41,763 bases of DNA from a virus: positions 1 to 41,763 of IMG/VR virus record IMGVR_UViG_3300005987_000004. One strand, written 5' to 3'. Under the pieces are notes generated by a model. It was given only the letters and a program-made list of their open reading frames with translations. It did not search any database and was not told where the DNA came from. Position numbers and translations under genes: made by a program. This document shows positions 22,947 to 34,592 of the stretch, in pieces (position 1 is the stretch's first letter; the number at the start of each line of letters is the position of its first letter).

Positions 22947-23002
22947 GGGGGACTCCTTGAGAGTTAGGGGAGAAACAGTGATCTCACACAAACCCCCAGC
23001 CG

Positions 23003-23452
23003 TTACGCTCCAACCACCTCAGCAAAACCAGAACGCCGACCATCCCGCTCCGCCGACGCCCGAGACGCAATCAAAGCATCCAACTCCTCATCAGACAACT
23101 CAGCCACCGACCGAGTCGTCTGCACCTGCAACGGAGGCGGCACCATCCGACCAGTAGCCCTCAACCACGTCTCCGCAGCCTTGTTATCCCCATCCAACCC
23201 ACGCTGATACAGGCTATCCAGGAGTCCCTGCGTCCTCTCAGGAGACATCTGCACCGTATCCACACGCAACCGCCACTGCTCCCGAAAATCAGCCCGCTTC
23301 TCCCAATTCCGCAACGTCTCCGCAGCAACCCCCACCCCAGCCGCGTACTTATTCTTCGACGAAGGCACCCGCTCAGACGGCACAGTACACAACCAATCCA
23401 AATACGCCAACTGCCGAGAATCCAAACCACCAGTACCCGCTGTCGTAGCCAT
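23003..23452 (-). CDS. Terminase small subunit candidate
   Basis: First late gene. HTH-like AAGVGVAAETLRNWEKR and DNKAAETWLRATG. Preceded by the GTAACG-N16-ATG motif. Confidence 0.65.
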   Translation of the reverse strand: MATTAGTGGLDSRQLAYLDWLCTVPSERVPSSKNKYAAGVGVAAETLRNWEKRADFREQWRLRVDTVQMSPERTQGLLDSLYQRGLDGDNKAAETWLRATGRMVPPPLQVQTTRSVAELSDEELDALIASRASAERDGRRSGFAEVVGA

Positions 23453-23474
23453 CACCACAAGCCCCACCCGTTAC
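23450..23474 (-). promoter_or_regulatory. Late-strand start-associated motif (small terminase)
   Basis: Minus strand reads GTTTGTAACGGGTGGGGCTTGTGGTGATG. Confidence 0.8.
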
Positions 23475-23508
23475 AAACTACTTGCACACTACAAGTAACG
23501 TAACGCCT

Positions 23509-23527
23509 GGGGGGGGAAGGGGGGGGG
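23509..23527 (+). repeat. Homopolymer pair G8-AA-G9
   Basis: Read directly from the sequence. Confidence 0.95.
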
Positions 23528-23542
23528 CAAGAGCAAGACAAG

Positions 23543-23575
23543 CACCGTGAGCCGAGCTAAGGCTCGCTCACGGTG
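23543..23575. other. Stem-loop CACCGTGAGCCGAGC-TAA-GGCTCGCTCACGGTG
   Basis: 15-nt arms with one bulge, read directly from the sequence. Confidence 0.8.
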
Positions 23576-23712
23576 ATAGCAACGACAGTCCCGACCAACG
23601 GGAGGGACCCAAACCGTTACAAAACACCATATCCAACCCCCAGGGACCCAACCACTTCCAACCACCCACACCGCCACAGCCTGAGGGACTCCTTACTTTG
23701 GGTAGGGGCACA

Positions 23713-23732
23713 CCCCACCCCACCCCCACCCC
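23713..23732 (-). repeat. Canonical G-quadruplex motif on the minus strand (G4-T-G5-T-G4-T-G4)
   Basis: The plus strand reads CCCCACCCCACCCCCACCCC. Confidence 0.85.
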
Positions 23733-23863
23733 TTGCCATAACACCAGGTCAAAGCACATAACCTGCCTTACATGACCCCACCCAGGAAATTGCCCGATTA
23801 CTAGTAGTACAAGCGGTGTTCTCTCACGGGTCAATGGGGTTCGTGGGGGCGCTTGTATCAGGG

Positions 23864-23881
23864 TTGAAACGTGCGTTTCAA
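23864..23881. promoter_or_regulatory. Palindrome copy 1: TTGAAAC-GTGC-GTTTCAA
   Basis: Perfect 7-bp arms, 29 nt upstream of ATG 23910. Confidence 0.85.
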
Positions 23882-23909
23882 TCTGCTACCACAAGGAGAT
23901 GTAAGGGTC

Positions 23910-24323
23910 ATGTCGAAGAACAAGACGACGTTTGGTGTGTTCGAGTCGAAGATCGTTGAGGGTGACAAGTGCATCCTGGTCGGTTGGTGGGGTGCTGCTG
24001 AGGAAGCGGTGTCGTTGAAGCTGTCGGCTTCGGCGTATGCTGCTGAGGCGGTGAAGGTGTCGAAGCTGTACACTGCTGACAGTATCCGTGTGTCGATCGG
24101 CTACTGCCTGCGGGCGATGAAGGCTGGTTGGGGGTTGGGTGAGTTCGTGTCGTTCGAGCACTTGAAGGACTGTGTGGCGTCGCTGTCAACGAAGAAGGGC
24201 AAGGGGAAGATCGACCCCGTGCAGCGTGTGGCGGCGTCGGCGCACAACCTGACGTCGGTGCAGCTGCGTGCCCTGTTGGCCGACCTCGCTGAGGAGATGG
24301 GCTACAAGCTCGTCAAGAAGTGA
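23910..24323 (+). CDS. Hypothetical protein, first early gene (self-contained unit)
   Basis: CTACCACAAGGAG upstream of the ATG, a palindrome upstream and a terminator downstream. G-ending codon bias unlike most of the arm. Confidence 0.75.
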   Translation: MSKNKTTFGVFESKIVEGDKCILVGWWGAAEEAVSLKLSASAYAAEAVKVSKLYTADSIRVSIGYCLRAMKAGWGLGEFVSFEHLKDCVASLSTKKGKGKIDPVQRVAASAHNLTSVQLRALLADLAEEMGYKLVKK

Positions 24324-24336
24324 GCGTGGCCTGTTC

Positions 24337-24366
24337 GTGGCCCGCACCTTTCGGGGTGCGGGCCAC
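24337..24366 (+). terminator. Stem-loop, putative intrinsic terminator
   Basis: GTGGCCCGCACC-loop-GGTGCGGGCCAC, 14 nt after the stop. Confidence 0.6.
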
Positions 24367-24448
24367 GTTGGCGTTTCCAGCGTGTTTCACATGTCATCGG
24401 CTGTTGTTGGTGGCGTGTGACATGCACTGTGAATGCGGTGTGTGACGG

Positions 24449-24466
24449 TTGAAACGTTCGTTTCAA
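24449..24466. promoter_or_regulatory. Palindrome copy 2: TTGAAAC-GTTC-GTTTCAA
   Basis: Perfect arms. Lies after terminator 24337-24366 and before the next gene. Confidence 0.85.
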
Positions 24467-24504
24467 CTGGGCAAGTTTCCTACTACATGAGAGATGAGAC
24501 AGTG

Positions 24505-24663
24505 ATGAGTCGTAGTGTTGAGTTGGAGTTGTCGCGCCGTGATGTTGAGACGGTGGACCGTGGTGAGCATGATCGTTCGTGGGCTGATCGGTTGATCGCC
24601 TTGAATGATGATTACCGCCACTATCATGGTGGTGCGGTGCGTGTGCAGCGGGTGTGGTCATGA
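24505..24663 (+). CDS. Small hypothetical protein (alternative start 24487)
   Basis: ORF track frame. Its stop overlaps the next ATG (ATGA). Confidence 0.55.
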   Translation: MSRSVELELSRRDVETVDRGEHDRSWADRLIALNDDYRHYHGGAVRVQRVWS

Positions 24664-25091
24664 GTGGCCTGGCTGTTGGTGCGCGTGTGCGGGTGAAGGA
24701 TTCGCACGGTACGGCGTCTGCTGGTCGCACGGGTGAGATCGTCGGTCGGCGTGGCGGTTCTCGGTACGCTTGCGGTCCTCGCTTCTATTGGCGTGTGCGG
24801 TTGGATGATCTGGCTTCGACCTGGTTGTATCCTGATTCGTCGTTGGAGTTGCTGGGCGATGTGTGGGGTCCGCCGACTGGTCCGATGGTGTTCACGTCGG
24901 CCGAGTACGTCGCGTTCTACGGTGGGTGCGGGTTGCCGTGGGCCGTGAACGAACTGTGGTCGGCTGTCGACCCGCTGACAACGCTCGTCCTGCACCTGTG
25001 TGACGATGATGGTGTCGAGCGTTCGGCGTTGGTGTCGTTGCGTCGGGCCGCGCTCGATCTCTACATGCGGTCGTTGGGCGGTGAGGGCTGA
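24660..25091 (+). CDS. Hypothetical protein with an SH3/KOW-like N-terminus
   Basis: ATGA coupling. VGARVRVKD...GRTGEIVG motif. Confidence 0.65.
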   Translation: MSGLAVGARVRVKDSHGTASAGRTGEIVGRRGGSRYACGPRFYWRVRLDDLASTWLYPDSSLELLGDVWGPPTGPMVFTSAEYVAFYGGCGLPWAVNELWSAVDPLTTLVLHLCDDDGVERSALVSLRRAALDLYMRSLGGEG

Positions 25092-25285
25092 TGCGTTGGC
25101 TGTTGCTGGTTGCGTGTTGGGCTGGTTTCGTTGTCGTTGCGATCAACGTCAACGAAGCAACCTCGTTGTCGGGGTGTGTTCCTGTGGGGTCCGAGTTGGT
25201 GCCCGAGTTGGGTGTGGCTGTGTCGCCGCAGGGTCGTGTGGTTGAAACGCGGGTTTCAACTGGCGTCAGGTGGTGCCAGCCGTGA
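25091..25285 (+). CDS. Small protein with an N-terminal hydrophobic/signal-like segment
   Basis: MRWLLLVACWAGFVVVAI. TGATG coupling. Confidence 0.55.
   Translation: MRWLLLVACWAGFVVVAINVNEATSLSGCVPVGSELVPELGVAVSPQGRVVETRVSTGVRWCQP
25242..25259. promoter_or_regulatory. Palindrome copy 3: TTGAAAC-GCGG-GTTTCAA
   Basis: Perfect arms. Lies inside the 3' end of CDS 25091-25285, 23 nt before GTG 25282. Confidence 0.8.
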
Positions 25286-25470
25286 CCCGCATCATGCAAC
25301 CAGGCGACGCCTGCCTTGTCCTCTTCAATGGCGAATACCGTCGCGGCGTCGTTGTGAATGTGGAGGCGAGTGGGCCTTGGCCTGTTGACGTTCAGATCGA
25401 CGGGGAGCAGGATTTGCTTCCGTACAACTACGACCACAACGAGTGCACATGGTTGGAAGGTGAATTGTGA
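25282..25470 (+). CDS. Small SH3-like hypothetical protein
   Basis: GTGA coupling. PGDACLVLFNGEYRRGVVVNV. Confidence 0.55.
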   Translation: MTRIMQPGDACLVLFNGEYRRGVVVNVEASGPWPVDVQIDGEQDLLPYNYDHNECTWLEGEL

Positions 25471-25679
25471 GCGCTGATTTGTATGGTGCGTTCGCTGACC
25501 CGATCTTCCATCTGCGTTCACGTCGTGCGAGTGTGGCTCGCAGGCTGGTGGAGTTGGAGGCCCGCAAATGGTGCGCTTCTCCGTCGTTGACGGGTCGTGC
25601 GTGTGTGCAGTTGCGGCGCACGTTCTACACGCTGGCAGCCCGTGAGGTTGCCCTGCTTGACGCCCTTGGCGTCGCCTAG
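25467..25679 (+). CDS. Small hypothetical protein
   Basis: GTGA coupling. Followed by stem-loop 25695-25724. Confidence 0.55.
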   Translation: MSADLYGAFADPIFHLRSRRASVARRLVELEARKWCASPSLTGRACVQLRRTFYTLAAREVALLDALGVA

Positions 25680-25694
25680 TTGTAGCTCGACTAC

Positions 25695-25724
25695 CACCAC
25701 ACCCGCTTTCGAGCGGGTGTGGTG
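25695..25724 (+). terminator. Stem-loop, putative terminator
   Basis: CACCACACCCGC-TTTCGA-GCGGGTGTGGTG. Confidence 0.5.
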
Positions 25725-25769
25725 CTGGATGCGCTACAGCATCAACTACCACAACAAGGAGAAACAATC

Positions 25770-26099
25770 ATGACTGCATCAGCAGTAGCACCCACCACCA
25801 TGGTCATCGACGGCGTCGAATTCGTCCGAGCCGACAGCGTCAAGCCTGTCGGCCCGTCGGAGTGGCGTATCGTGATCGCCCAGCGCGGCTGGGTGTTCGT
25901 CGGCAGGTTCGAGCAGAACGGTGAGGAAATCACCCTGCACGACGCGTCGACGATTCGCACGTGGGGTACCACGAAGGGCCTGGGCCAGTTGGCGTTGGAG
26001 GGCAAGCAGACGGGCACGAAGCTGGACAAGGCGGGCACGGTGAAGTTGCATGTGTTGGGGGTGGTGGCGACGTTCGATACGGCGCACACGTCATGGTGA
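25770..26099 (+). CDS. Hypothetical beta-rich protein
   Basis: CTACCACAACAAGGAG upstream of the ATG. WRIVIAQRGWVFVGRF block. Confidence 0.7.
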   Translation: MTASAVAPTTMVIDGVEFVRADSVKPVGPSEWRIVIAQRGWVFVGRFEQNGEEITLHDASTIRTWGTTKGLGQLALEGKQTGTKLDKAGTVKLHVLGVVATFDTAHTSW

Positions 26100-26503
26100 G
26101 GGTCGGCGACAAGATCGTCGTATCCAGCCGATGCCCTGTAGGCCGCGGGCGAACTGGCCTTGTCGTTCGACTGGGCGTCGAACGCGACGGAAGGCCCACG
26201 GCACGCGCCTTGATGGACGACACAGGCTCCACCGCAACCTGGTACCACACATCGCTGACCGTCACCCAGCCCGCACTCACCAGAGTCATGGCCTCGTTGG
26301 GCGAAGACGCCCAAACGTCCTACGGCTACGGCTACGGCTACGGCTACGGCAACGGCTACGGCAACGGCCACGGCTACGGCTACGGCTACGGCAACGGCTA
26401 CGGCAACGGCTACGGCTACGGCGACGGCGACGGCTACGGCAACGGCTACGGCTACAGCTACGGCGACGGCAACGGCAACGGCAGCGGCTACGGCTACAGC
26501 TGA
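26093..26503 (+). CDS. SH3/KOW-like domain protein with a C-terminal Gly-Tyr(-Asn/Asp) repeat tail
   Basis: MVRVGDKIVV...GRGRTGLVV, then about 60 residues of GYGYGNGYG repeats. Confidence 0.7.
   Translation: MVRVGDKIVVSSRCPVGRGRTGLVVRLGVERDGRPTARALMDDTGSTATWYHTSLTVTQPALTRVMASLGEDAQTSYGYGYGYGYGNGYGNGHGYGYGYGNGYGNGYGYGDGDGYGNGYGYSYGDGNGNGSGYGYS
26321..26500 (+). repeat. 180-bp tandem array of TACGGC / AACGGC / GACGGC hexamers (in-frame, encodes YG/NG/DG)
   Basis: Read directly from the sequence. The antisense frame gives the spurious (AV)n ORF 25742-26515. Confidence 0.95.
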
Positions 26504-26513
26504 ACCAACGACC

Positions 26514-26558
26514 ATTCACGCATATCGGAAGGTCCAACCCCTTCCGATGTGCGTGAAT
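26514..26558 (+). terminator. Long stem-loop (19-bp arms, one mismatch), putative terminator
   Basis: ATTCACGCATATCGGAAGG-TCCAACC-CCTTCCGATGTGCGTGAAT. Confidence 0.6.
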
Positions 26559-26568
26559 GGTTGCACAA

Positions 26569-26586
26569 CTGAAACGACCATTTCAA
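26569..26586. promoter_or_regulatory. Palindrome copy 4: CTGAAAC-GACC-ATTTCAA
   Basis: The 21-nt string CTGAAACGACCATTTCAATCC is identical to that of copy 6. Lies after stem-loop 26514-26558. Confidence 0.85.
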
Positions 26587-26630
26587 TCCAATCCAACAGC
26601 AAACACCCACCACATTAGGAGAGAAAGACG

Positions 26631-26834
26631 ATGTTCACGATCATTGGATACGTTGTTGTTGCAGCGGTTGCTGCGGCAATGATTGTTGTCGGGGTTCGCA
26701 AGGCCCGACAGGAATACCAGCGAGGCTTCAACGATGGCTTGTTGGAAGGAATCGACGAGGGTGCCGCCTCGGGTTGGGCTGCGGCGTTCGCGTTCTACAC
26801 CATCATCGACGATGAGGGCGGGGTGCGCTCATGA
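26631..26834 (+). CDS. Small membrane protein
   Basis: AGGAGAGAAAG SD. TM segment IIGYVVVAAVAAAMIVVGV. Confidence 0.7.
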   Translation: MFTIIGYVVVAAVAAAMIVVGVRKARQEYQRGFNDGLLEGIDEGAASGWAAAFAFYTIIDDEGGVRS

Positions 26835-28846
26835 GCATCATCCGCATCGCCCTGCTCGACTATCGGCCAGGCCAGGGCGACTTCCTTGCCTTGCCTGATC
26901 GGGCGGAGGTCACCACCGAACAGATGGCAGGTGCCGCCCTGTACGGCGACCTCCCCTGTCTGCTGCTCGCCGTCCGAGAAGACCGCCGAATCCATGCGGC
27001 CGACTGGCTGCGACGCATGGGGATGCGTTGCTGGGTGTGGGTGTCTGGCGTCACCCCCGCCCGCACCCGCGATTCCAGCTTCACCGACCCGTTGCGGTTG
27101 CTTGCGTTGTCGACGTGGGACTCCAACCAGCACAGTATCGTGTTCGGTGGTCTGCGTTCGTACAACGAATACGAATTCCCACCCGTTCCCGTTTCCCCTA
27201 CCACCAATCCCATCAACACAGGAGACAACATCATGCCGAACAACAACATGGTCGACTACAGCCAACTGGTCGTGTCCACCGCGTCGTGGGACCGCCCCCG
27301 AGACAGTCGTGGACGGTTCACCGTCACATCACAGCGCAGCATCCTCATCGACGAAGCCCCCCGCTCAACCCTGGACGTCGATCTCGCCATCCTCTACGGG
27401 TCGCCCGAAGTGCAGACCGAACCCGCCATGGACACAGGCCCGTACGTGAACTCGTACGGGTCGACCTACATGGTCGAAGCATGCACCTACGAGCAGGCGT
27501 GCGAATCGTTCGGCGACCCGCAACGCTGCGCCCACTGCCACAACTGGTTCGACCTTGACAGCACATTGCAGCTGGCGAACGGACAGTACTACACCGACCA
27601 GAGCGCCAGCCCAACATGGTCGGGTCGGCGATCGCAGGTGTACCTGACCCGATGCTGCCCCCGCTGCATCGACCGCAGCAGCGAACGGTACTTCAACTGC
27701 GCGGTCTGCGAAGAACGGGAAGGCGAACCGATCTACTACCCGCGCCGCGACCGCGCCTCGAACGCATCGATGTGCTTCGCCTGCTGGGAAGACAGCAACT
27801 CTCGGGAATACGACGACGACGACGGATACGTTGTTGAGGACGGGCGCATCATCCACGACTACTCGTACCGCCCCGCACCCGAATTCCGTCACAACGACGG
27901 CAGCGTCGGTTTCGACGCTGCCGACCATGTGACGTACATGGGGTTCGAGTTGGAAATGGAATGCACCAACGGTGCAGACCCCACCACCCTCGGGCGGACC
28001 ATCCTCAAAGACCTGAACGATGCCGCCTACATCAAGACCGACGGGTCGCTGTCCTACGGCATCGAACTCGTCACCCACCCGCACACCCTCGCCGCCTACA
28101 AGGACGGGTTCGATTGGGGATGGGCTGAGAAGGTCGCGAACATGGGTGGCCGTTCCTGGTCGGCCAGCTCATGCGGCCTGCACATCCATGTGGGTGTGTC
28201 GACGTTCGAGTCCCGTTCCCACTTCGCACGCTGGTGGATGCTGTTCCACCGCAACGCCGACCAGTGGGTGAAACTCGCAGGTCGCGATTCGGCCCGCTGG
28301 GCGAACTTCGGCGACTGGGACGACTCGGCAGCGAACCAGGGTGCCATCCGTCGGGCGATCGGCTACATGCCGTTCAACTTGGAGAACTCGCCGTCCGCTC
28401 CGCCACCACCCGACTACTATCGGATGCGCCCGCAGCAGATCGACGAAGCCGAGTTCCGTCGCAACCAGTTCTTCAAGTACCACCCGAACCAGCTGGCACA
28501 GAAGGGGCGACGTGGCGGCACCCGTTACGTCGCGCTGAACACCAACAACGAACACACGGTGGAACTCAGGTTCTGGCGTCCATCGCTGCGTCACACCACT
28601 GTGCTCGCAGCGTTGGAAGCGACCGCCGCTTCCGTAGAGTACACCCGCGGGCTGCGGGTCCTCAACAAGAAAGAGGACCTGGCAACAAAGCTGGCTGTCG
28701 TGAAGTGGGACGCGTTCCGCAGCTGGGTGAAGGACCACGCCAACGAGTACCCGTACCTGGATTCGCGCATCGTCGCCCGCTTCAACGAAGCGGGCGACGG
28801 CGAACCCGAAGCTGGGAACGTCGACGAACGTGTCGGCGCACTGTGA
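26831..28846 (+). CDS. Amidoligase (Amidoligase_2 / GS-like COOH-NH2 ligase family) with a long N-terminal extension carrying four CxxC pairs
   Basis: Blocks YMGFELEME, DGSLSYGIELVTHP, SSCGLHIHV and TRYVALN..HTVELRFWRPSL. N-terminal CAHC/CPRC/CAVC/CFAC pairs. An in-frame ATG at 27233 has its own GGAGA SD. Confidence 0.75.
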   Translation: MSIIRIALLDYRPGQGDFLALPDRAEVTTEQMAGAALYGDLPCLLLAVREDRRIHAADWLRRMGMRCWVWVSGVTPARTRDSSFTDPLRLLALSTWDSNQHSIVFGGLRSYNEYEFPPVPVSPTTNPINTGDNIMPNNNMVDYSQLVVSTASWDRPRDSRGRFTVTSQRSILIDEAPRSTLDVDLAILYGSPEVQTEPAMDTGPYVNSYGSTYMVEACTYEQACESFGDPQRCAHCHNWFDLDSTLQLANGQYYTDQSASPTWSGRRSQVYLTRCCPRCIDRSSERYFNCAVCEEREGEPIYYPRRDRASNASMCFACWEDSNSREYDDDDGYVVEDGRIIHDYSYRPAPEFRHNDGSVGFDAADHVTYMGFELEMECTNGADPTTLGRTILKDLNDAAYIKTDGSLSYGIELVTHPHTLAAYKDGFDWGWAEKVANMGGRSWSASSCGLHIHVGVSTFESRSHFARWWMLFHRNADQWVKLAGRDSARWANFGDWDDSAANQGAIRRAIGYMPFNLENSPSAPPPPDYYRMRPQQIDEAEFRRNQFFKYHPNQLAQKGRRGGTRYVALNTNNEHTVELRFWRPSLRHTTVLAALEATAASVEYTRGLRVLNKKEDLATKLAVVKWDAFRSWVKDHANEYPYLDSRIVARFNEAGDGEPEAGNVDERVGAL

Positions 28847-28879
28847 CCACCAACGCAACCAGCAACCCCATCATCCGAA

Positions 28880-28897
28880 CTGAAATGGAGATTTCAA
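28880..28897. promoter_or_regulatory. Palindrome copy 5: CTGAAAT-GGAG-ATTTCAA
   Basis: The spacer GGAG is the only SD-like element for ATG 28902. Confidence 0.8.
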
Positions 28898-28901
28898 CCA
28901 C

Positions 28902-29978
28902 ATGTGCATTCTGATTCACACCACAGGCGACGGCAACACACCCACCAAAGACGCGCTCATCACAGCGTGCGACAACAACCCCGACGGGTTCGGTTGGGCG
29001 ATCGTGTACCCGACCGAAATCTGGTCGCATCGCACGATGGACGCCGCCCAGGCGGTCAACTCGTACCTCAACGCGATGGCAGCGGTCGAGGGCCGCTACC
29101 CGTCACTGTTCCACGCCCGCATCACCACACACGGCATCACGAACGTCGAGAACTGTCACCCGTTCAAGGTGGGCGACCATCAGACGATGCTCGCCCACAA
29201 CGGCATCATCACGAACGTGCCAGACATGAAAGATGGTCGGTCTGACACCCGCACGTTCGCCGAAGACTGGCTACCCCAGCTGGGGTTGGAGATGCTCGAC
29301 GACCCCGACGAGTTCGATCAGCTCGAACGGTTCATCGGGGCGTCGAAAATCGTGGTGCTCACCACCGACCCCCGACTCAAGCACTCCACGTACATCCTGA
29401 ACGAGTCGTACGGCAAGTGGGAGAACGGCATCTGGTACTCGAACAGTTCGCATCGTGAAAGCTACCAAACCTACACCACCAGCTACTCGCATGGTGGCGG
29501 CTGGTCCGAGAACCGCGAGTGGACAGGATGGCGGCCGTCGCAATCCACATTCGGGGTCATCAAGGAAGCGGACGGGCGGGAGTTCTACTTCCGTAAGGAC
29601 GAAGAACAAGAACAGTTGGACCCGTTGTTCTGCGATTTCTGCAACGAGTACTTCCTGTCCGCCGACGACTACTGCCCACAGTGCGACATGTGCGCCATCT
29701 GCGGCCGTTGGAACTGTCGGTGCGGCAAGGAAAGTGCACTCACCCCCGAAGATGGGGGCGAGTGGATTCCGACCGAATGGGAGCTGGGCCGCGACTGGTT
29801 CCAGAACGCAGACGGCGCACTGCTGCTGTGGGACAACGCTCTCGAACAGTGGCGGCCCGCCACGAACGCCGAATGCGACATCCACATCGCCATGCACGGT
29901 CCACTGTGGTCACCACTCGACGACGTCCATGACGCCGAAGACATCCATGCCGAATCCACCCTGTTCGTCGAACTCTAA
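28902..29978 (+). CDS. Class-II (Ntn, N-terminal Cys) glutamine amidotransferase-like protein with a Cys-rich C-terminal tail
   Basis: Starts MC, then HARITTHG, NCHPF and AHNGII. C-terminal CDFC..CPQCDMCAICGRWNCRC. Confidence 0.75.
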   Translation: MCILIHTTGDGNTPTKDALITACDNNPDGFGWAIVYPTEIWSHRTMDAAQAVNSYLNAMAAVEGRYPSLFHARITTHGITNVENCHPFKVGDHQTMLAHNGIITNVPDMKDGRSDTRTFAEDWLPQLGLEMLDDPDEFDQLERFIGASKIVVLTTDPRLKHSTYILNESYGKWENGIWYSNSSHRESYQTYTTSYSHGGGWSENREWTGWRPSQSTFGVIKEADGREFYFRKDEEQEQLDPLFCDFCNEYFLSADDYCPQCDMCAICGRWNCRCGKESALTPEDGGEWIPTEWELGRDWFQNADGALLLWDNALEQWRPATNAECDIHIAMHGPLWSPLDDVHDAEDIHAESTLFVEL

Positions 29979-29994
29979 CCCGAAAGACCAAACA

Positions 29995-30252
29995 ATGACC
30001 ACGATCACAAACCCGAACCCCGACATCTTCTACATGGAAGACGATCAACTGATGGCCAGCCTGGGTGTGTCGATGCCCGAGTTGGAAGCACTTCACAAGA
30101 CGTTGGGCATCGCCCTGTCGAACCTGATGGGCAAAGCAGGACGGCTGCCACCTGGCACCCCGCTGCACCAGTCCGTCACATCCGAACTGGCGTTGTTGTC
30201 GTCGTTGCAGCAGGAAGTGTTGGGCATCTACGCTGAGTACCAGTCAGGCTGA
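29995..30252 (+). CDS. Small helical acidic hypothetical protein
   Basis: ORF-track frame, ATG 29995, last gene before palindrome copy 6. Confidence 0.6.
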   Translation: MTTITNPNPDIFYMEDDQLMASLGVSMPELEALHKTLGIALSNLMGKAGRLPPGTPLHQSVTSELALLSSLQQEVLGIYAEYQSG

Positions 30253-30266
30253 AACGACCATTTCAA
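30249..30266. promoter_or_regulatory. Palindrome copy 6: CTGAAAC-GACC-ATTTCAA
   Basis: Overlaps the stop codon at 30250-30252, 47 nt before ATG 30313. Confidence 0.85.
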
Positions 30267-30312
30267 TCCGCAAGATCACCAAGCAAGTACCTACCATAAG
30301 GAGAAAGTTGTA

Positions 30313-30540
30313 ATGCAAGCACAAATCGAAACCGTTGAGCCGAACGTGACGCTCACCATGACGAAGACCGAAGCCGATCAGCTGTTTCGGGTGATGGGCT
30401 ATTCATGCGTCTCGGCCTGGGAAGGCTATGTGGGCGCAGTGTTCTACACCCCTCGCCGACCGATCACCCCCGACGAAGCGTCGGCGATCGGCAACAAGGT
30501 GTACCTCACCCTGAACACCATCCTCGGAGGCCAGGAATGA
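30313..30540 (+). CDS. Hypothetical protein
   Basis: CTACCATAAGGAG upstream of the ATG. Confidence 0.7.
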   Translation: MQAQIETVEPNVTLTMTKTEADQLFRVMGYSCVSAWEGYVGAVFYTPRRPITPDEASAIGNKVYLTLNTILGGQE

Positions 30541-30746
30541 GCGTCAACAGCGAATTCATCACTGAAACCGTCGACATCGTCAACGACTGCCGCCTGTGGG
30601 ACGTCAACATCGGAGCTATCGGCTCGCTCACAACCAGCGAGGTGCGAGACATCCTGACACTCCTCGAAGGTTGGGGGTACGTGTGGGGAGACGTCCCGTA
30701 CATGCCGTTCGAGTACGACGTCGTTTCCAAGTGGGGTCGGCCATGA
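30537..30746 (+). CDS. Hypothetical protein
   Basis: ATGA coupling. Confidence 0.6.
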   Translation: MSVNSEFITETVDIVNDCRLWDVNIGAIGSLTTSEVRDILTLLEGWGYVWGDVPYMPFEYDVVSKWGRP

Positions 30747-30925
30747 ACCGCTACCTGCTGTTCGCTGGCAGCCAGTACTACCCCAGTCGGGGGTGGCGAG
30801 ATTTCATCGCCAGCTTCGAGACGAAAGCCGAAGCGGTTCACGAAGCCGCAAAAGGCAGGGAAGATTGGTGGCAGATCGTTGACCTTGACACCGAAAGCGT
30901 TGTTGATGAAGGGACGCGTTCATGA
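30743..30925 (+). CDS. Hypothetical protein (YLLFAGSQYYP..GW.DF type small phage protein)
   Basis: ATGA coupling. Confidence 0.6.
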   Translation: MNRYLLFAGSQYYPSRGWRDFIASFETKAEAVHEAAKGREDWWQIVDLDTESVVDEGTRS

Positions 30926-31239
30926 GTGATCAGCCGTCGCTCGCACGACTTCTCGCCTTCCATGCCGAAGTCCCCGTCGTCGAAGCGGCAGAACTGCTGT
31001 CGTCGCATCACATGGAAATCCTGCGCACCATCCTTGGTGCGTGGGGTGACATGGCGGCCGACTGCGGGGAAGAGAAATCGACGTACGACTACCTGGTCAA
31101 CATTGGCCTCACCCCAGCGGTAGCGCGCTGGGTGTGCGGTCAACCGCAAACCGAACCACAACAGACGATCGCTGAACGCGAGTTGTGGGAGCAGTTGCCG
31201 CTACCTGATGAACTTCTGCCGTGGACGGTGACGTCATGA
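30922..31239 (+). CDS. Hypothetical protein
   Basis: ATGA coupling; ORF track. Confidence 0.65.
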   Translation: MSDQPSLARLLAFHAEVPVVEAAELLSSHHMEILRTILGAWGDMAADCGEEKSTYDYLVNIGLTPAVARWVCGQPQTEPQQTIAERELWEQLPLPDELLPWTVTS

Positions 31240-31496
31240 CCGCCGACAGACTGACCGACGGGCAGGTTGCTGCCATCCTGCTGTGTCCGAAGAACTTTGA
31301 GGATGAGGGTTGGGACGAGTACACGGGGTCGAACCTCCAAGGACTCGCCCGTGAGGTGGCGGCGTACCGCGCCGCCATGAAGGAAGTCGATTCGGACGAC
31401 GCACCCTGCGAGTACCGAGGCACCGAGCATTTCGCCTGGGCCTCTGGCTGGAACGCCGCCATCGAACACCTGCGTCAGGCGGCGGATGGCGGCTAA
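31236..31496 (+). CDS. Hypothetical protein
   Basis: ATGA coupling. Confidence 0.6.
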   Translation: MTADRLTDGQVAAILLCPKNFEDEGWDEYTGSNLQGLAREVAAYRAAMKEVDSDDAPCEYRGTEHFAWASGWNAAIEHLRQAADGG

Positions 31497-31764
31497 GAAG
31501 AAACAGGCCCCGCTGCCTGTACTCAACATCGGGGGCGCAGTCAGGGAACTGCGCCCCCAGGACCGCCGACCTGACGGGTCGGTCATTCTGCAATGCCACG
31601 GTGGCCCGTATGACCGCCGTCAGCTGCGCCTGTACCCACCGTTCAATGACCCTGTTGTGGTTGCTGATGGTGTGTACAGGTTGGCTGGTCCCGCCCAGCA
31701 GGGTGGGGCGGATGGTTTGTTGTTTCAACGTGAGGGTGTGCCCTCGGAAAAGGATGTGATTTGA
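31486..31764 (+). CDS. Hypothetical protein
   Basis: ORF track; 11-nt overlap with the upstream gene. Confidence 0.6.
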   Translation: MAAKKKQAPLPVLNIGGAVRELRPQDRRPDGSVILQCHGGPYDRRQLRLYPPFNDPVVVADGVYRLAGPAQQGGADGLLFQREGVPSEKDVI

Positions 31765-32148
31765 ATGTGTGATTCTTCTGTGGAGCGTGTTCCGCAGGTC
31801 GGCGAAGTGTGGCGTTCAACCAATCTGCCGTCTGAGCGCATCATTGTGGCGGTGTTGCCCGATCACCCATACTTGGTTGTGGTGGTCGGTCCCGAGGGTG
31901 GTGAGCCGTGGGTGTGTCGGGTTGAGTTGTTGACCCCGCCGCCCCCGCCGCCGCCCGCATGGGTTCGACCCAAGATCGACGCCTACCGCAACGCTGTCGG
32001 CAACATCTACTCCCACCAAACGCTGATAAGCTGGCATCCTAGTGATGATGCTGCTGATCGCATGGCGCACGGAAGGCGCATTGGCAAGGTGTACGCGAAC
32101 GACCCTGATCGTTGGGTGCCGTGCAGCGGCAAGGAGGTGCTGTCATGA
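31765..32148 (+). CDS. Hypothetical protein with an SH3-like N-terminus and a Pro tract
   Basis: ATG immediately after the upstream TGA. VGEVWRS...IIVAVL, then PPPPPPP. Confidence 0.65.
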   Translation: MCDSSVERVPQVGEVWRSTNLPSERIIVAVLPDHPYLVVVVGPEGGEPWVCRVELLTPPPPPPPAWVRPKIDAYRNAVGNIYSHQTLISWHPSDDAADRMAHGRRIGKVYANDPDRWVPCSGKEVLS

Positions 32149-32222
32149 AGTCCGCATGGTGGCTGCTGACCCCGCCAGTGGTGGCGGTCGTGGTGTTCCT
32201 GTTGGCACGGTGGCGGCCATGA
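32145..32222 (+). CDS. 25-aa single-TM micro-ORF
   Basis: AAGGAGG SD and ATGA coupling at both ends. MKSAWWLLTPPVVAVVVFLLARWRP. Confidence 0.45.
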   Translation: MKSAWWLLTPPVVAVVVFLLARWRP

Positions 32223-32419
32223 GCGTCGGCGATTACACCACCCAGGTCGAACGCTGCCAGGCTGAGCTGGTGGTGGAGTTGACGAAACACGCCGACCAAA
32301 TGGCCGACATTCTTGAAAAACTGGTGAACTGCCAGATCATCGAGGCCGAGGGCTGGAAGTTGGAAGAGGAAGCGTGGAACGCCGCCAAGGCGTACCGCGG
32401 GTTCGTGGGGGAGTGCTGA
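32219..32419 (+). CDS. Small helical hypothetical protein
   Basis: ATGA coupling. Confidence 0.6.
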   Translation: MSVGDYTTQVERCQAELVVELTKHADQMADILEKLVNCQIIEAEGWKLEEEAWNAAKAYRGFVGEC

Positions 32420-32470
32420 TGGCTGATCGGCGACGATCAACACGCCCGCCTACCCCAACCAGGAGAACCA

Positions 32471-32623
32471 ATGAACCACACCCTCATCCACACCACGGAC
32501 CTGCTCGCAGCGCTGCTCCGAGAAGCCATACGGTCAGACGAACCGCTGCTACCTGAACAGAAACAGCAAGCACGGCAGGCGCTCACCGACTACGACGAGA
32601 TCAGAGCAAGGCTGATGACGTGA
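32471..32623 (+). CDS. 50-aa hypothetical protein
   Basis: AGGAGA SD 5 nt before the ATG; below the ORF-track length cut-off. Confidence 0.5.
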   Translation: MNHTLIHTTDLLAALLREAIRSDEPLLPEQKQQARQALTDYDEIRARLMT

Positions 32624-32731
32624 CGACACTCCTCGTCCTCATCATCCTCCTACCCATCATCACCAACCAGCGGCGACGATGAAAACGCAAGCAACGCCCG
32701 CCATATGAGCGGGTAACATCAAAACACACAT

Positions 32732-32811
32732 GAAACCCCAACACAAACACGGAACAGCGACACCCTCAACGCCGAGGTCACGCCACCACCCGTGTTCTGT
32801 GTTGGGGTTTC
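32732..32811. repeat. Long inverted repeat (21/22-nt arms, 37-nt loop) immediately upstream of the integrase
   Basis: GAAACCCCAACACAAACACGG ... CCGTGTTCTGTGTTGGGGTTTC. Confidence 0.9.
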
Positions 32812-32840
32812 TGCGTTCCCACCCACCAAGGAGCAACCAC

Positions 32841-33785
32841 GTGAGCAACGACATCGTCGAATGGGTCGACTGGCTCCAAGACGTCCGCCAAGTACGCGGA
32901 GCCACAACCGACGCCTACAGGCGCACACTGTTCGAGTTCGCCAACTTCGTCGGCCACGAAAACTGGGCGACCGTAGACGGACAACAAATCGAAGCGTTCA
33001 TGGGCCGCGAACGCCGCGGCGGCATCACAGGAGCCGCCGCCACCCAAGACCGCGACCGTGTGGCAGTCGGCGGGTTCTACAAGTACCTGATGGCCCGAGG
33101 ACGCGTCCCAACCAACCCGATCGTTGACGTCGGCGTACCCAAGGTCCGCAACCGTCAACCCAGGGCCATCCCCGACCTGGTGTGGACGCGACTGTGGCAA
33201 GCCAGCAACCTGCCCGACGACGACCGACTATGGTTGGGGTTGGGCTGTTTCGCAGGGTTACGCCGTCAGGAGATCGTGTCCGTCGCCCCCTACCAGATCG
33301 ACCCCCAACGGGGGCTGATCTTACATCTGGAACGCAAGGGCGGTACCGAAGGCTCAATCGAGTACGTGGAACTCGCTCAGATCGTTTCTGAGCGTTTCCC
33401 GCACCTACTCCCCACCCCCGACGTTTGGACGTCTCTCGTGGCAAAATACGCCAGCGCACGGGCCTCTGAGCGTTGCCTCATCACCATGGACAGCCCAGCA
33501 ACCGACCTGACGCGCCTCAGGTCGTCATTCACGGACCCGAACCTGCCTGACCCTGCGGTCATCAACCGCCGACTCAAAACGGTACTCAGAACGGTTGGGC
33601 TGCCACCGAACGCGTTCACCCCGCACGCGTTGCGGCACACCTGCGCGACGAACCTCATCAGGGCGGGGCTACCCATCGAACTCGTCGCCGACATCCTCGG
33701 CCACTCCGACATCGACACCACACGACGCTACATCCGCTCCACAGGCATGCTGTCAGAATGGCGAACCCGACTGGCCGTCAATTGA
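32841..33785 (+). CDS. int: Tyrosine integrase
   Basis: AAGGAG SD before GTG 32841. GLRRQEI, HALRHTCATNLIRAG and LGHSDIDTTRRY (R..HxxR..Y catalytic pattern). Confidence 0.9.
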   Translation: MSNDIVEWVDWLQDVRQVRGATTDAYRRTLFEFANFVGHENWATVDGQQIEAFMGRERRGGITGAAATQDRDRVAVGGFYKYLMARGRVPTNPIVDVGVPKVRNRQPRAIPDLVWTRLWQASNLPDDDRLWLGLGCFAGLRRQEIVSVAPYQIDPQRGLILHLERKGGTEGSIEYVELAQIVSERFPHLLPTPDVWTSLVAKYASARASERCLITMDSPATDLTRLRSSFTDPNLPDPAVINRRLKTVLRTVGLPPNAFTPHALRHTCATNLIRAGLPIELVADILGHSDIDTTRRYIRSTGMLSEWRTRLAVN

Positions 33786-33799
33786 AACGCCCGTTTCAA
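33782..33799. promoter_or_regulatory. Palindrome copy 7: TTGAAAC-GCCC-GTTTCAA
   Basis: Perfect arms. Overlaps the integrase stop at 33783-33785. Confidence 0.85.
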
Positions 33800-33880
33800 A
33801 AACCACCACTGACACAGGCTCCGACCCGCCCCTACCGTGGGGAGGGGGATAAAGGGGGTGGGGCTACCGCCCCGTCCCGA

Positions 33881-33913
33881 CCGCCAACCGAACCCTCGGG
33901 GGTTCGTTGGCGG
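33881..33913. other. Stem-loop CCGCCAACCGAACCC-TCG-GGGGTTCGTTGGCGG
   Basis: Read directly from the sequence; one bulge. Confidence 0.75.
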
Positions 33914-33983
33914 TACAGGAACCGAAGCAACGACAGTCTGGTCCAGACACATGAACTGTGTCAGTTCACAAACCCCTACCACG

Positions 33984-34004
33984 GGAGACGCTCAGAGCGT
34001 CTCC
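33984..34004. other. Perfect palindrome GGAGACGCT-CAG-AGCGTCTCC
   Basis: Read directly from the sequence; 26 nt upstream of TTG 34030. Confidence 0.85.
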
Positions 34005-34029
34005 GTTCAAAGAAAGGAACGCTCTCACC

Positions 34030-34437: not shown

Positions 34438-34592
34438 GAAAGCTCGCCGTGCTCGCACTTCTCATCACACCCCTGGCGGGGTGTTCGCTCGAATCCGAAC
34501 CTGGCCCGAACCGCCGTGACGAATGTCGCAAACGTGGTGGCATGGTTCAAGAGAACCAGTTTGGCGACTACGCAGGCTGCGTGTTACCATGA
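34434..34592 (+). CDS. Small lipoprotein
   Basis: MRKLAVLALLITPLAGC: signal peptide plus an LAGC lipobox. ATGA coupling. Confidence 0.65.
   Translation: MRKLAVLALLITPLAGCSLESEPGPNRRDECRKRGGMVQENQFGDYAGCVLP

What the first reader, a model, noticed from the sequence alone, without database searches (positions are those of the whole stretch)
26569..30266. Operator-bracketed amidoligase plus Ntn-amidotransferase module with zinc-ribbon arrays: candidate uncharacterised amide/peptide-ligation system
Seen in sequence:
- CDS 26831-28846 (671 aa) carries Amidoligase_2-type blocks in its C-terminal half: YMGFELEME at about 27938-27961, DGSLSYGIELVTHP, SSCGLHIHV at about 28172-28192, and TRYVALN..HTVELRFWRPSL.
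- These blocks sit behind about 360 aa with no enzyme motif I recognise but four CxxC pairs (CAHC, CPRC, CAVC, CFAC, about 27480-27790).
- An in-frame ATG at 27233 has its own GGAGA SD, so a shorter isoform lacking residues 1-134 is possible.
- The next CDS (28902-29978) starts Met-Cys and has HARITTHG, NCHPF and AHNG. This is the class-II N-terminal-nucleophile amidotransferase/amidohydrolase signature. It then has its own Cys-rich tail (CDFC..CPQCDMCAICGRWNCRC).
- A 67-aa membrane protein precedes the pair and an 85-aa helical acidic protein follows it.
- Palindrome copies 4, 5 and 6 sit exactly before, between and after these units. Copy 5 holds the only SD (GGAG) for the amidotransferase in its spacer.

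Established knowledge: comparative genomics by Iyer, Aravind and colleagues (2009) predicted that phage amidoligase plus GAT-II pairs make peptide tags or modified metabolites. The analogy is with GS-fold ligases such as PafA/Dop in pupylation. I know of no biochemical characterisation of a phage version.

Inference: this is a two-enzyme ligate/deamidate system. Its zinc ribbons may target a protein or nucleic acid. The co-transcribed small proteins are candidate substrates or tags.
Basis: partly seen in the sequence, partly recalled or inferred. Interest (0 to 1): 0.85.

Follow-up and report, generated by a model that had tools for sequence, protein, structure and literature searches.

The report
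Widespread phage amidoligase–amidohydrolase gene pair
Two adjacent early genes of this temperate phage encode an ATP-dependent amide-bond ligase with a zinc-ribbon array and a cysteine amidohydrolase; the pair is real and strictly co-inherited, but it belongs to a very common phage module described by comparative genomics in 2009, whose chemistry and target remain untested.

Summary

The enzyme calls are supported only by sensitive methods:
- The 671-aa protein is below Pfam's Amidoligase_2 cut-off. However, 57 of 60 homologues hit that family, and its model matches YbdK (E 1.4e-5).
- The 358-aa Met-Cys protein is below the Pfam GATase cut-offs. Its profile hits the GlmS glutaminase domain (8e-9) and its model matches GlmS, PurF and EgtC.

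The two genes are adjacent and co-oriented in 82 of 84 phage loci and in 61 of 78 Clostridia loci with a detectable amidoligase ORF. Marvin gp105/gp106 is the same pair. The ligase family has about 16,800 clusters at 50% identity.

The flanking small proteins are clade-specific, and the 85-aa protein has no conserved C-terminus, so they are poor tag candidates. The palindrome occurs 8 times across the genome and is not specific to this module. The family's zinc-ribbon arrays are strongly acidic, which argues against nucleic-acid binding.

New here:
- An internal SD-ATG is conserved in three relatives.
- Residues 135-340 are hypervariable (23% variable columns versus 2% in the catalytic domain).

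Verdict: a new member of a known, biochemically uncharacterised module.

The parts
26569..26589 (.). Palindrome copy (CTGAAACGACCATTTCAATCC), 42 nt upstream of the 67-aa gene.
   Evidence: The 21-mer is repeated exactly at 30249. It is one of 8 TGAAA-N6-TTTCA sites. The same position is occupied in L001 and L004. As RNA it folds at -1.5 kcal/mol with z = 0.
26631..26834 (+). 67-aa single-pass membrane-type protein. Its stop overlaps the ligase start (ATGA).
   Evidence: ORF and ATGA overlap. Homologues occur only in L001-L004, always directly upstream of the ligase gene. There is no Pfam or PHROG family.
26831..28846 (+). 671-aa zinc-ribbon plus GS/GCS-fold carboxylate-amine ligase (divergent Amidoligase_2).
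26831..27232 (+). N-terminal extension, aa 1-134. It is specific to the clade and has no known domain.
   Evidence: GC3 is 0.77 and dN/dS is 0.46. pLDDT is mostly below 50. No homologues were found.
27220..27235 (+). In-frame AGGAGA-N7-ATG (Met135): candidate internal start giving a 537-aa isoform.
   Evidence: The nucleotide motif is conserved in L001, L002 and L003 inside an otherwise unalignable A/C-rich stretch. L004 has only a weak GGGGA-N7-ATG.
27233..27850 (+). Hypervariable linker plus zinc-ribbon array, aa 135-340. The CxxC pairs lie at nt 27527-27784.
   Evidence: The CxxC pairs are invariant or nearly so in 60 homologues. 23% of columns vary among 6 natural variants, against 2% in the catalytic domain, p = 3e-15. 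dN/dS is 1.6.
27851..28780 (+). Catalytic ligase domain, aa 341-650.
   Evidence: pLDDT is about 85-98 over most of the core, with dips at aa 491-520 and 551-563. Foldseek gives YbdK 1r8g E 1.4e-5 and gamma-glutamylmethylamide synthetase 9qur. Invariant residues are E373, E375, K402, D404, E412, H451, H453, R485, R565, N570, E578 and R580.
28881..28896 (.). Palindrome copy TGAAATGGAGATTTCA between the two enzyme genes. Its spacer carries the GGAG Shine-Dalgarno sequence of the GAT gene.
   Evidence: The equivalent copy in L004 spans the ligase stop, and the GAT start follows it directly.
28902..29978 (+). 358-aa class-II (Cys-Ntn) glutamine-amidotransferase-fold amidohydrolase with a Cys-rich acidic tail.
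   Evidence: The Ntn domain is aa 1-185, with pLDDT mostly above 90.
29631..29723 (+). 8-Cys cluster C244-C274 (CxxC-N10-CxxCxxCxxC-N4-CxC).
   Evidence: It is conserved in 75 of 81 phage-type partners and in Marvin gp106, and absent from 59 of 61 Clostridia partners.
29995..30252 (+). 85-aa acidic helical protein. It is syntenic in the clade but probably not part of the enzyme module.
   Evidence: Identity to the L002-L004 proteins is 31-41%. In 8 other loci it lies 1-2 kb from the GAT. The C-terminus is not conserved.
30249..30269 (.). Palindrome copy. Its TGA is the stop codon of the 85-aa ORF.

Best explanation
This is a self-contained two-enzyme cassette of the phage early region.

Shown:
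- Gene 1 encodes a glutamine-synthetase/gamma-glutamylcysteine-ligase-fold carboxylate-amine ligase. It belongs to a divergent Amidoligase_2 clade and keeps all family-invariant acidic, His and Arg residues. An array of CxxC zinc ribbons precedes the catalytic domain.
- Gene 2 encodes a stand-alone class-II (N-terminal Cys nucleophile) amidotransferase-fold protein.
- The two genes are inherited together.

Inferred:
- The ligase uses ATP to join a carboxylate, most likely the gamma-carboxyl of glutamate, to an amine on a target.
- The Cys-Ntn enzyme keeps the residues that in GlmS hold the free alpha-carboxylate and alpha-amino group of glutamine (Arg73, Asn100-Gly101, Asp115). It therefore acts on the same gamma-glutamyl-type amide, trimming or reversing it. 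This would be a writer/eraser or ligate-then-process pair.
- That logic recurs in known GS-like ligase plus GAT-like hydrolase pairs: EgtA/EgtC, PuuA/PuuD, and GmaS with N-methylglutamate synthase.
- The target is probably a protein or a basic small amine rather than nucleic acid, because the zinc-ribbon arrays of the family are strongly acidic.
- The fast-evolving region aa 135-340 is the likely target-recognition surface.
- The protein may be made in two lengths, from Met1 and from Met135.
For: Ligase identity:
- 57 of 60 homologues hit Pfam Amidoligase_2, and long relatives score 22-39 bits against a cut-off of 22.
- Foldseek gives YbdK 1r8g E 1.4e-5 with probability 1.0, and gamma-glutamylmethylamide synthetase 9qur at E about 1e-2.
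- The invariant residues are listed.

GAT identity:
- Met-Cys start and invariant H71, R73, T76, G78, N84, H86, P87, H99, N100, G101 and D115.
- Profile hits to GlmS at 8e-9, PurF, 3mdn and 1te5. hhalign probability is 95%.
- Foldseek hits GlmS at 1.5e-6, then PurF and EgtC.
- There is no synthase domain. Homologues carry Pfam GATase_4, which from memory is the YafJ-type family of stand-alone proteins.

Linkage:
- The GAT ORF directly follows the ligase ORF in 82 of 84 phage loci; the two exceptions are contig ends.
- It does so in 61 of 78 Clostridia loci with a detectable ligase ORF.
- It does so in Marvin gp105/gp106.

Gamma-glutamyl chemistry: other phage clusters add an ATP-grasp enzyme annotated 'glutathione synthase', a gamma-glutamylcyclotransferase and a second COOH-NH2 ligase (PMC10945688; PMC3890496).

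Target type:
- 58 of 60 zinc-ribbon regions are net negative, median -20.5.
- The GAT tail has 35 Asp+Glu against 11 Lys+Arg.

Recognition surface: variability of aa 135-340 and dN/dS of 1.6.

Internal start.
Against: - No experiment exists for any member of the family.
- Both window proteins fall below the curated Pfam cut-offs on their own.
- A writer/eraser pair in one two-gene operon has no obvious net product.
- The match of Asp115 to GlmS Asp123 rests on motif position only. The profile alignments stop at His-Asn-Gly.
- The window's own zinc-ribbon stretch (aa 233-318) has net charge 0, unlike the family median.
- High variability in aa 135-340 could reflect relaxed constraint on a linker rather than an arms race.
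- The zinc-ribbon region is modelled with low confidence.
Confidence: 0.5

Rival explanations
1. Glutamine-dependent amidation. The Cys-Ntn protein is a true amidotransferase subunit. It hydrolyses free glutamine and passes ammonia to the ligase. The ligase activates a carboxylate on the target with ATP and converts it to a carboxamide (R-COOH to R-CONH2).
For: - This gives a productive net reaction for a self-contained two-gene module.
- The full glutamine-binding and oxyanion residue set is conserved.
- Adjacency, fixed gene order and short or overlapping junctions are near-universal.
- GS-fold enzymes use ammonia naturally (established knowledge).
Against: - To my knowledge, class-II GAT domains that donate ammonia are fused to their synthase domain, whereas stand-alone ones such as EgtC are hydrolases.
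- The one apparent fusion, L059, is a deletion that removes Cys1.
- The Cys-rich GAT tail that might dock the ligase is missing in the Clostridia pairs.
- I know of no GS-fold enzyme with a GAT partner that donates ammonia.
Confidence: 0.25
2. Auxiliary metabolic genes. The pair acts on free small molecules of the host, such as glutamine, glutathione-like thiols or polyamines, to shift nitrogen, thiol or polyamine pools during infection.
For: - Papers on marine and deep-sea phages read the pair this way (PMC10580990; PMC10945688).
- PuuA/PuuD and gamma-glutamylmethylamide synthetase are small-molecule precedents, and 9qur is a structural hit.
- Acidic regions could attract polyamines.
Against: - A conserved array of 4-8 CxxC zinc ribbons and variable N-terminal extensions of 100-250 aa are not expected for a small-molecule enzyme.
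- The hypervariable aa 135-340 points to recognition of a macromolecule.
- The published claims are annotation-based only.
Confidence: 0.1
3. DNA or nucleobase hypermodification. The ligase adds an amino-acid-type group to a base in phage DNA and the GAT matures it, protecting the DNA from restriction.
For: - Amidoligase and amidotransferase genes co-occur with thymidine hypermodification genes in viral metagenome contigs (PMC8989533).
- Zinc ribbons often bind nucleic acids (established knowledge).
Against: - No 5-HMUDK, aGPT-Pplase, dUMP hydroxymethylase, DpdA or DNA polymerase was found among the window ORFs scanned.
- The 80 IMG/VR loci carry WhiB-like and other small proteins beside the pair, and no other enzyme among the ten conserved neighbour clusters inspected.
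- The zinc-ribbon arrays are strongly acidic.
- The phage is temperate, with an integrase.
Confidence: 0.07
4. Peptide-tag conjugation. The flanking 67-aa or 85-aa protein is ligated to targets, or is itself the substrate, as in pupylation.
For: - The ligase has a GS-like fold, as PafA does.
- The four-gene order small-ligase-GAT-small is kept in L001-L004.
- The 67-aa gene is translationally coupled to the ligase gene.
Against: - The small proteins were not detected in most of the 80 IMG/VR loci, nor in Marvin at this position.
- The 85-aa protein's C-terminus varies: YQSG, SVDEH, QEMT, SNYHG.
- The 67-aa protein looks membrane-anchored.
- The partner is an Ntn hydrolase, not a Dop-like paralogue of the ligase.
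Confidence: 0.05

Closest known systems
Mycobacterium phage Marvin gp105/gp106 (Cluster S) and the phage 'amidoligase + GAT-II' pair of Iyer, Abhiman, Burroughs and Aravind 2009 (Pfam PF12224 Amidoligase_2)
   Same: - The architecture and gene order are the same. An N-terminal CxxC array is followed by a ligase core with the motifs GVELEV, HDGS..GVEIVSHP, HIHV, RYVAVN and ELRFF.
- Next comes a Met-Cys GAT with the same C-terminal 8-Cys cluster.
- Identity is 28% over aa 341-633.
- The function is equally unknown.
   Different: - The window protein has an extra 230-aa N-terminal region with a candidate internal start.
- It has only 4 CxxC pairs against a median of 6-7.
- It has a 50-aa insert, aa 500-555, shared only with P0001-P0004.
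- It scores below the Pfam cut-off.
- Marvin gp105 has a C-terminal extension instead.
LUZ24-like (Bruynoghevirus), PaP3, tf and phiEco32 clusters: COOH-NH2 ligase + Amidoligase_2 + GATase + ATP-grasp
   Same: An Amidoligase_2 gene lies beside a class-II GATase gene in the early region, followed by a roughly 70-aa ORF (PMC3890496).
   Different: - Those clusters hold two further ligases, which suggests a multi-step product. Here the pair stands alone.
- Their ligases are too distant to appear in tblastn at E <= 1e-5.
EgtA/EgtC (ergothioneine), PuuA/PuuD (putrescine), GmaS with N-methylglutamate synthase
   Same: - A GS/GCS-fold enzyme makes a gamma-glutamyl amide, and a GAT-fold Cys enzyme later cleaves or uses it.
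- EgtC and GmaS are structural hits.
   Different: - Those are small-molecule pathways of cells, with further enzymes acting between the two steps.
- They have no zinc-ribbon array and no phage context.
- PuuD is a class-I GAT fold, not class II.
PafA/Dop pupylation
   Same: A GS-like ligase forms an isopeptide bond through a glutamate gamma-carboxyl, and a partner amidase is encoded nearby.
   Different: - No Pup-like tag is present.
- The partner has an Ntn fold rather than being a ligase paralogue.
- The pair also occurs in phages of Clostridia and Proteobacteria, which to my knowledge lack pupylation.

Membership tests
Pfam PF12224 Amidoligase_2 (GS-like COOH-NH2 ligase) | Score at or above the curated gathering cut-off (22 bits). 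| tested here: not met
   The window protein scores 15.9 bits, E 0.012, over aa 435-483 only.
Pfam PF12224 Amidoligase_2 (GS-like COOH-NH2 ligase) | Homology to family members, shown through intermediates. | tested here: met
   57 of 60 aligned homologues hit PF12224 at E <= 1e-3, best 1e-9. Among ten long relatives, eight score 27-39 bits, one scores 21.8 and one gives no hit. BFVD hits are named 'Amidoligase enzyme' at E 3e-22.
Pfam PF12224 Amidoligase_2 (GS-like COOH-NH2 ligase) | GS/GCS-type catalytic fold with conserved acidic, His and Arg residues. | tested here: met
   Foldseek gives YbdK 1r8g E 1.4e-5 with probability 1.0. Invariant residues are E373, E375, E412, H451, H453, R485, R565, E578 and R580. 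Their mapping onto the metal- and ATP-binding residues of GS is from memory.
Pfam PF12224 Amidoligase_2 (GS-like COOH-NH2 ligase) | Gene neighbourhood with a GAT-II-like thiol peptidase (the Pfam description, recalled from memory). | tested here: met
   82 of 84 phage loci. 61 of 78 Clostridia loci with a detectable ligase ORF.
Pfam PF12224 Amidoligase_2 (GS-like COOH-NH2 ligase) | ATP-dependent amide-bond formation. | not testable with these tools
   This needs an enzyme assay.
Class-II (Ntn) glutamine amidotransferase fold (Pfam GATase_4 / GATase_6) | Score at or above the curated cut-offs. | tested here: not met
   GATase_6 scores 24.5 against 27. GATase_4 scores 19.6 against 23.
Class-II (Ntn) glutamine amidotransferase fold (Pfam GATase_4 / GATase_6) | Cys directly after the initiator Met, as the nucleophile. 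| tested here: met
   The protein starts Met-Cys. In the 24-sequence alignment M1 is invariant and C2 is conserved in at least 90%.
Class-II (Ntn) glutamine amidotransferase fold (Pfam GATase_4 / GATase_6) | Ntn four-layer fold and homology to solved glutaminase domains. | tested here: met
   Profile against PDB: GlmS 1xff at 8e-9, then PurF, 3mdn and 1te5. hhalign probability is 95%. Foldseek gives 1xff at 1.5e-6, then PurF and EgtC. pLDDT is mostly above 90 for aa 1-185.
Class-II (Ntn) glutamine amidotransferase fold (Pfam GATase_4 / GATase_6) | Glutamine-binding Arg, Asn-Gly oxyanion hole and Asp for the alpha-amino group. | tested here: inconclusive
   R73 and N100-G101 align with GlmS R73 and N98-G99. 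D115 in the RSDTR motif is invariant, but its match to GlmS D123 rests on motif position only.
Class-II (Ntn) glutamine amidotransferase fold (Pfam GATase_4 / GATase_6) | A fused acceptor (synthase) domain that receives ammonia, as in true amidotransferases. | tested here: not met
   The C-terminal 170 aa form a Cys-rich acidic tail with no enzyme domain.
Pup/ubiquitin-like tag conjugation | A co-conserved small tag protein with a conserved C-terminal ligation residue. | tested here: not met
   The C-termini differ, and the proteins were not detected in most loci.
Thymidine hypermodification clusters (5-HMUDK, aGPT-Pplase) | A 5-hmdU kinase, or a hydroxymethylase, in the genome. | tested here: not met
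   None was found in about 40 window ORFs scanned with Pfam or PHROGs. The structural genes on the minus strand were not all scanned.
Known anti-phage defence systems (PADLOC-DB v2) | A match to any defence-protein model. | tested here: not met
   No hit for any of the four proteins.
Repressor operator / stoperator-type sites (for the palindrome) | Many copies of one specific sequence at gene boundaries, conserved in relatives. | tested here: met
   There are 8 copies against 0.01 expected, and 7 of the 8 lie at gene boundaries. The same positions are occupied in L001 and L004. The three copies at the module have no RNA-folding signal.
Repressor operator / stoperator-type sites (for the palindrome) | Binding by a phage regulator. 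| not testable with these tools
   This needs EMSA or ChIP. A sigma-70 region-4-like protein at 40989-41402 is one candidate binder.

The most novel reading that the evidence does not exclude
The pair is a phage 'writer/eraser' for adding a single gamma-glutamyl group to lysines of basic host proteins, for example nucleoid-associated silencers or ribosomal proteins. The acidic, fast-evolving zinc-ribbon region would act as an interchangeable targeting module locked in an arms race, and two isoforms would be made from one gene. This would be a new kind of post-translational host takeover, or superinfection exclusion, carried by thousands of phage lineages.
Probability: 0.15. Interest if true: 0.8.

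Novelty: new member of a known kind. Interest (0 to 1): 0.4.

Why it matters
This cassette is one of the most common enzyme pairs of unknown function in phage genomes. The ligase family has about 16,800 clusters at 50% identity. It occurs in actinophages, including cultured Cluster S mycobacteriophages, and in Clostridia genomes, probably in prophages. More distant versions are reported in Pseudomonas, E. coli and marine phages.

Sixteen years after its prediction, nobody knows its substrate. This instance adds three clues for experiments:
- The targeting region is acidic and hypervariable while both catalytic domains are frozen.
- An internal start may give two isoforms.
- The pair works without any other conserved enzyme.

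This instance comes from an uncultured phage and does not make the question easier to test. Marvin gp105/gp106 in M. smegmatis is the practical model.

Tried and rejected
- **DNA similarity to cultured phages:** megablast found no match for the module. Elsewhere in nt 1-25000 there was only a 539-nt match in the VanY-like gene.
- **Profile of the ligase family against PDB sequences:** only insignificant LIM and zinc-finger hits, E >= 0.2, and none to the catalytic domain. The fold had to come from a model.
- **Apparent ligase-GAT fusion in L059:** rejected as Rosetta-stone evidence. The junction deletes the GAT N-terminus, including Cys1, and the zinc-ribbon part sits in a separate overlapping ORF.
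- **N-terminal extensions:** ten long family members carry no Pfam domain there. A search with aa 1-134 returned nothing, not even the 93%-identical relatives, so it says little.
- **RNA hairpin or terminator reading of the palindrome:** the three copies at the module fold at -1.5 to -3.8 kcal/mol, no better than shuffles. Terminator-like and promoter-like sites in 23000-34500 are at chance level.
- **Alternative motifs in L002 and L003:** inverted-repeat searches found no recurrent motif.
- **Other negatives:** no PADLOC defence model matched. No tRNA was found to mark an attachment site.
- **Literature:** Iyer et al. 2009 (PMC3268129) is not held in the library. What I say about it comes from citing papers and from memory.

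Full report
**Setting**

The window looks like a complete temperate phage genome of 41.8 kb.
- Virion and lysis genes lie on the minus strand, roughly 1471-23467. They include a VanY-type peptidase and a 2404-aa ORF.
- An early/replication arm runs on the plus strand from 23871.
- That arm contains a tyrosine integrase (32730-33785), a PD-(D/E)XK nuclease, a DnaB-like helicase, an RNase T-like exonuclease and a sigma-70 region-4-like protein.
- No cultured phage is similar at the DNA level.
- The finding lies about 3 kb into the early arm.

**Observation**

- The four ORFs, the ligase blocks, the four CxxC pairs and the in-frame AGGAGA-N7-ATG at 27220-27235 are all present.
- So are the Met-Cys start, the HARITTHG/NCHPF/AHNG motifs and the 8-Cys tail of the second enzyme.
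- The 67-aa gene overlaps the ligase start by ATGA.
- The palindrome TGAAA-N6-TTTCA occurs 8 times against 0.01 expected.
- Copies lie before (26570), between (28881, with the GAT gene's GGAG in its spacer) and after (30250, overlapping a stop codon) the units.

**Enzyme identities**

On their own, both proteins fail the curated Pfam cut-offs:
- Amidoligase_2 scores 15.9 bits against 22.
- GATase_6 scores 24.5 against 27.
- GATase_4 scores 19.6 against 23.
- PHROGs places both in families of unknown function.

Sensitive methods settle the matter.

For the ligase:
- 57 of 60 aligned homologues hit Amidoligase_2.
- The residues invariant across those 60 are E373, E375, K402, D404, E412, H451, H453, R485, R565, N570, E578 and R580.
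- The AlphaFold model is confident for most of aa 340-650.
- It matches the carboxylate-amine ligase YbdK (1r8g, E 1.4e-5, probability 1.0). It matches gamma-glutamylmethylamide synthetase more weakly.

For the second enzyme:
- A 24-sequence profile hits the GlmS glutaminase domain (8e-9), PurF and two stand-alone class-II GAT proteins.
- hhalign gives 95% probability.
- The model has pLDDT mostly above 90 for aa 1-185. It matches GlmS, PurF and the ergothioneine Ntn hydrolase EgtC.
- Arg73 and Asn100-Gly101 align with the glutamine-binding Arg and the oxyanion hole of GlmS.
- Invariant Asp115 sits where GlmS Asp123 would be, but that match rests on motif position only.

**Linkage and distribution**

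- Four relatives at 33-93% identity keep the order small protein, ligase, GAT, small protein.
- In 80 IMG/VR loci plus those four, the GAT ORF directly follows the ligase ORF on the same strand in 82 of 84. The two exceptions are contig ends.
- Many of these contigs carry a WhiB-like gene, so they are probably actinophages.
- In 80 bacterial-genome loci, all Clostridia, 78 have a detectable ligase ORF. A more divergent GAT follows it in 61 of these.
- Mycobacteriophage Marvin gp105/gp106 has the same two architectures, including the GAT's 8-Cys cluster.
- An exhaustive profile search finds 16,793 clusters at 50% identity (6,744 at E <= 1e-30). Many have unrelated N-terminal extensions of 100-250 aa that hold no Pfam domain.
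- UniProt already names viral homologues 'Amidoligase enzyme'.
- Papers up to 2025 note the pair in LUZ24-like, OM43, Poseidoniales and other phages. They cite Iyer et al. 2009 and only speculate: cell-wall modification, superinfection immunity, secondary metabolites or nitrogen metabolism.
- I found no biochemical study.

**What is not part of the module**

- The 67-aa membrane protein has homologues only in the four close relatives.
- The 85-aa protein is conserved in that clade. It lies 1-2 kb from the GAT in eight further loci, was not detected in the other loci, and has a variable C-terminus.
- Neither small protein is therefore a convincing tag or substrate.
- Among the ten conserved neighbour clusters inspected in the wider family, I recognised only a WhiB-like protein and no other enzyme. 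The pair appears self-sufficient.

**The palindrome**

- The full site is close to TTGAAACG-NN-CGTTTCAA.
- Near-perfect copies cluster at 23865, 24450, 25243 and 33783. The three copies at the module and one inside a late gene (3601) are degenerate.
- Positions are kept in L001. More tellingly, they are kept in L004, where protein identity is only about 40%. There the site spans the ligase stop and abuts the GAT start.
- L002, L003 and the 80 IMG/VR loci lack it.
- As RNA, the module copies fold no better than shuffled sequence. Promoter-like and terminator-like sites are at chance level.
- The best reading is a lineage-specific regulator-binding site that punctuates the early operon. It is not a bracket specific to this module.

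**New details seen here**

1. *Internal start.*
   - The nucleotide string AGGAGA(C/T)-N6-ATGCC is conserved in the window, L001, L002 and L003.
   - It sits in an A/C-rich stretch where the proteins otherwise do not align.
   - That stretch resembles this phage's 5' leaders.
   - The upstream 134 codons are nevertheless coding: GC3 is 0.77 and dN/dS is 0.46.
   - Two isoforms are plausible.
2. *Hypervariable region.*
   - Six natural variants of the protein exist.
   - 23% of columns vary in aa 135-340 against 2% in aa 341-671, Fisher p = 3e-15. There are 13 multi-state columns and indels.
   - Pairwise dN/dS is 1.6 there, against 0.19 in the catalytic domain and 0.09 in the GAT.
   - The GAT has only two variants over 14 contigs.
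3. *CxxC arrays.* They are universal in this ligase subfamily, with a median of 6-7 pairs. The GAT's Cys cluster is confined to the actinophage-type pairs.
4. *Charge.* The zinc-ribbon arrays are strongly acidic: median net charge is -20.5 and 58 of 60 are negative. The GAT tail is also acidic.

**Mechanism**

Shown: a GS/GCS-fold ligase and a Cys-Ntn amidohydrolase with intact catalytic residues are inherited as a unit.

Inferred:
- The ligase makes a glutamate-type amide on an amine.
- The Ntn enzyme, built to hold a free alpha-amino and alpha-carboxyl glutamyl group, cleaves or processes that amide.
- This follows recurrent cellular pairs (EgtA/EgtC, PuuA/PuuD, GmaS with N-methylglutamate synthase).
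- It also fits the ATP-grasp 'glutathione synthase' and gamma-glutamylcyclotransferase genes in larger phage clusters.
- The acidic, fast-evolving zinc-ribbon region points to a basic protein or amine target rather than DNA.

Rivals:
- The main rival is glutamine-dependent amidation, with the GAT as ammonia donor. It gives a cleaner net reaction, but it lacks precedent for stand-alone class-II GATs and for GS-fold acceptors.
- DNA hypermodification is unlikely. No partner genes were found and the arrays are acidic.
- No PADLOC defence model matches.

**Verdict**

The finding is real and correctly identified at the enzyme level. It is a new, somewhat elaborated member of a known and very widespread module that has not been characterised biochemically. 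The small-protein 'tag' idea and the 'operator-bracketed' framing do not hold.

Noticed in passing
window 26320-26501 (ORF about 26096-26503, + strand): Thirty tandem copies of the hexamer CTACGG encode a Gly-Tyr / Gly-Asn repeat tail on a 135-aa protein just upstream of the module (TRF score 259). There is no convincing family match.
   Followed up: partly
window 27233-27850 (aa 135-340 of the 671-aa protein): This is a hotspot of amino-acid variation among six natural variants. 23% of columns vary against 2% in the catalytic domain, with multi-state sites and indels at aa 165-185 and 311-313. Pairwise dN/dS is 1.6.
   Followed up: yes
window 3601, 23865, 24450, 25243, 26570, 28881, 30250, 33783: There are eight copies of a TTGAAACG-NN-CGTTTCAA-type palindrome. 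Seven lie at early-gene boundaries, and two supply the TGA stop codon of the upstream gene. One lies inside the 2404-aa late ORF. Positions are conserved in relative L004 at about 40% protein identity.
   Followed up: partly
window 2125-9339, - strand: A single 2404-aa ORF takes 17% of the genome. It is presumably a giant virion, tail or internal protein and was not annotated here.
   Followed up: no
window 40989-41402, + strand: A 137-aa protein has a sigma-70 region-4 domain (Pfam Sigma70_r4_2, 33 bits; PHROG 'RNA polymerase sigma factor / transcriptional regulator'). It is a candidate phage transcription factor and a possible binder of the palindrome.
   Followed up: no
window 37362-37667 and 41399-41707, + strand: Two small ORFs of 101 and 102 aa both match the same PHROG of unknown function (phrog_6343), so they are paralogues within one genome.
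   Followed up: no
L059 1991-4026: An IMG/VR relative has the ligase and GAT joined into one ORF by a deletion that removes the GAT's first 20 or so residues, including Cys1. The zinc-ribbon part is split into an overlapping ORF. This is probably a decayed copy or an assembly error.
   Followed up: yes
L005-L084 (IMG/VR loci), about 0.5 kb downstream of the GAT gene: A WhiB-like 112-aa protein is conserved in 67 loci. This marks these roughly 40-kb contigs as probable actinophages.
   Followed up: partly
window 1471-2112, - strand: A VanY-type D-Ala-D-Ala carboxypeptidase (Pfam 32 bits) holds the only stretch of nt 1-25000 with DNA similarity to a deposited phage: 77% over 539 nt to Caudoviricetes sp. 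MW202803 from Manatee Spring.
   Followed up: no
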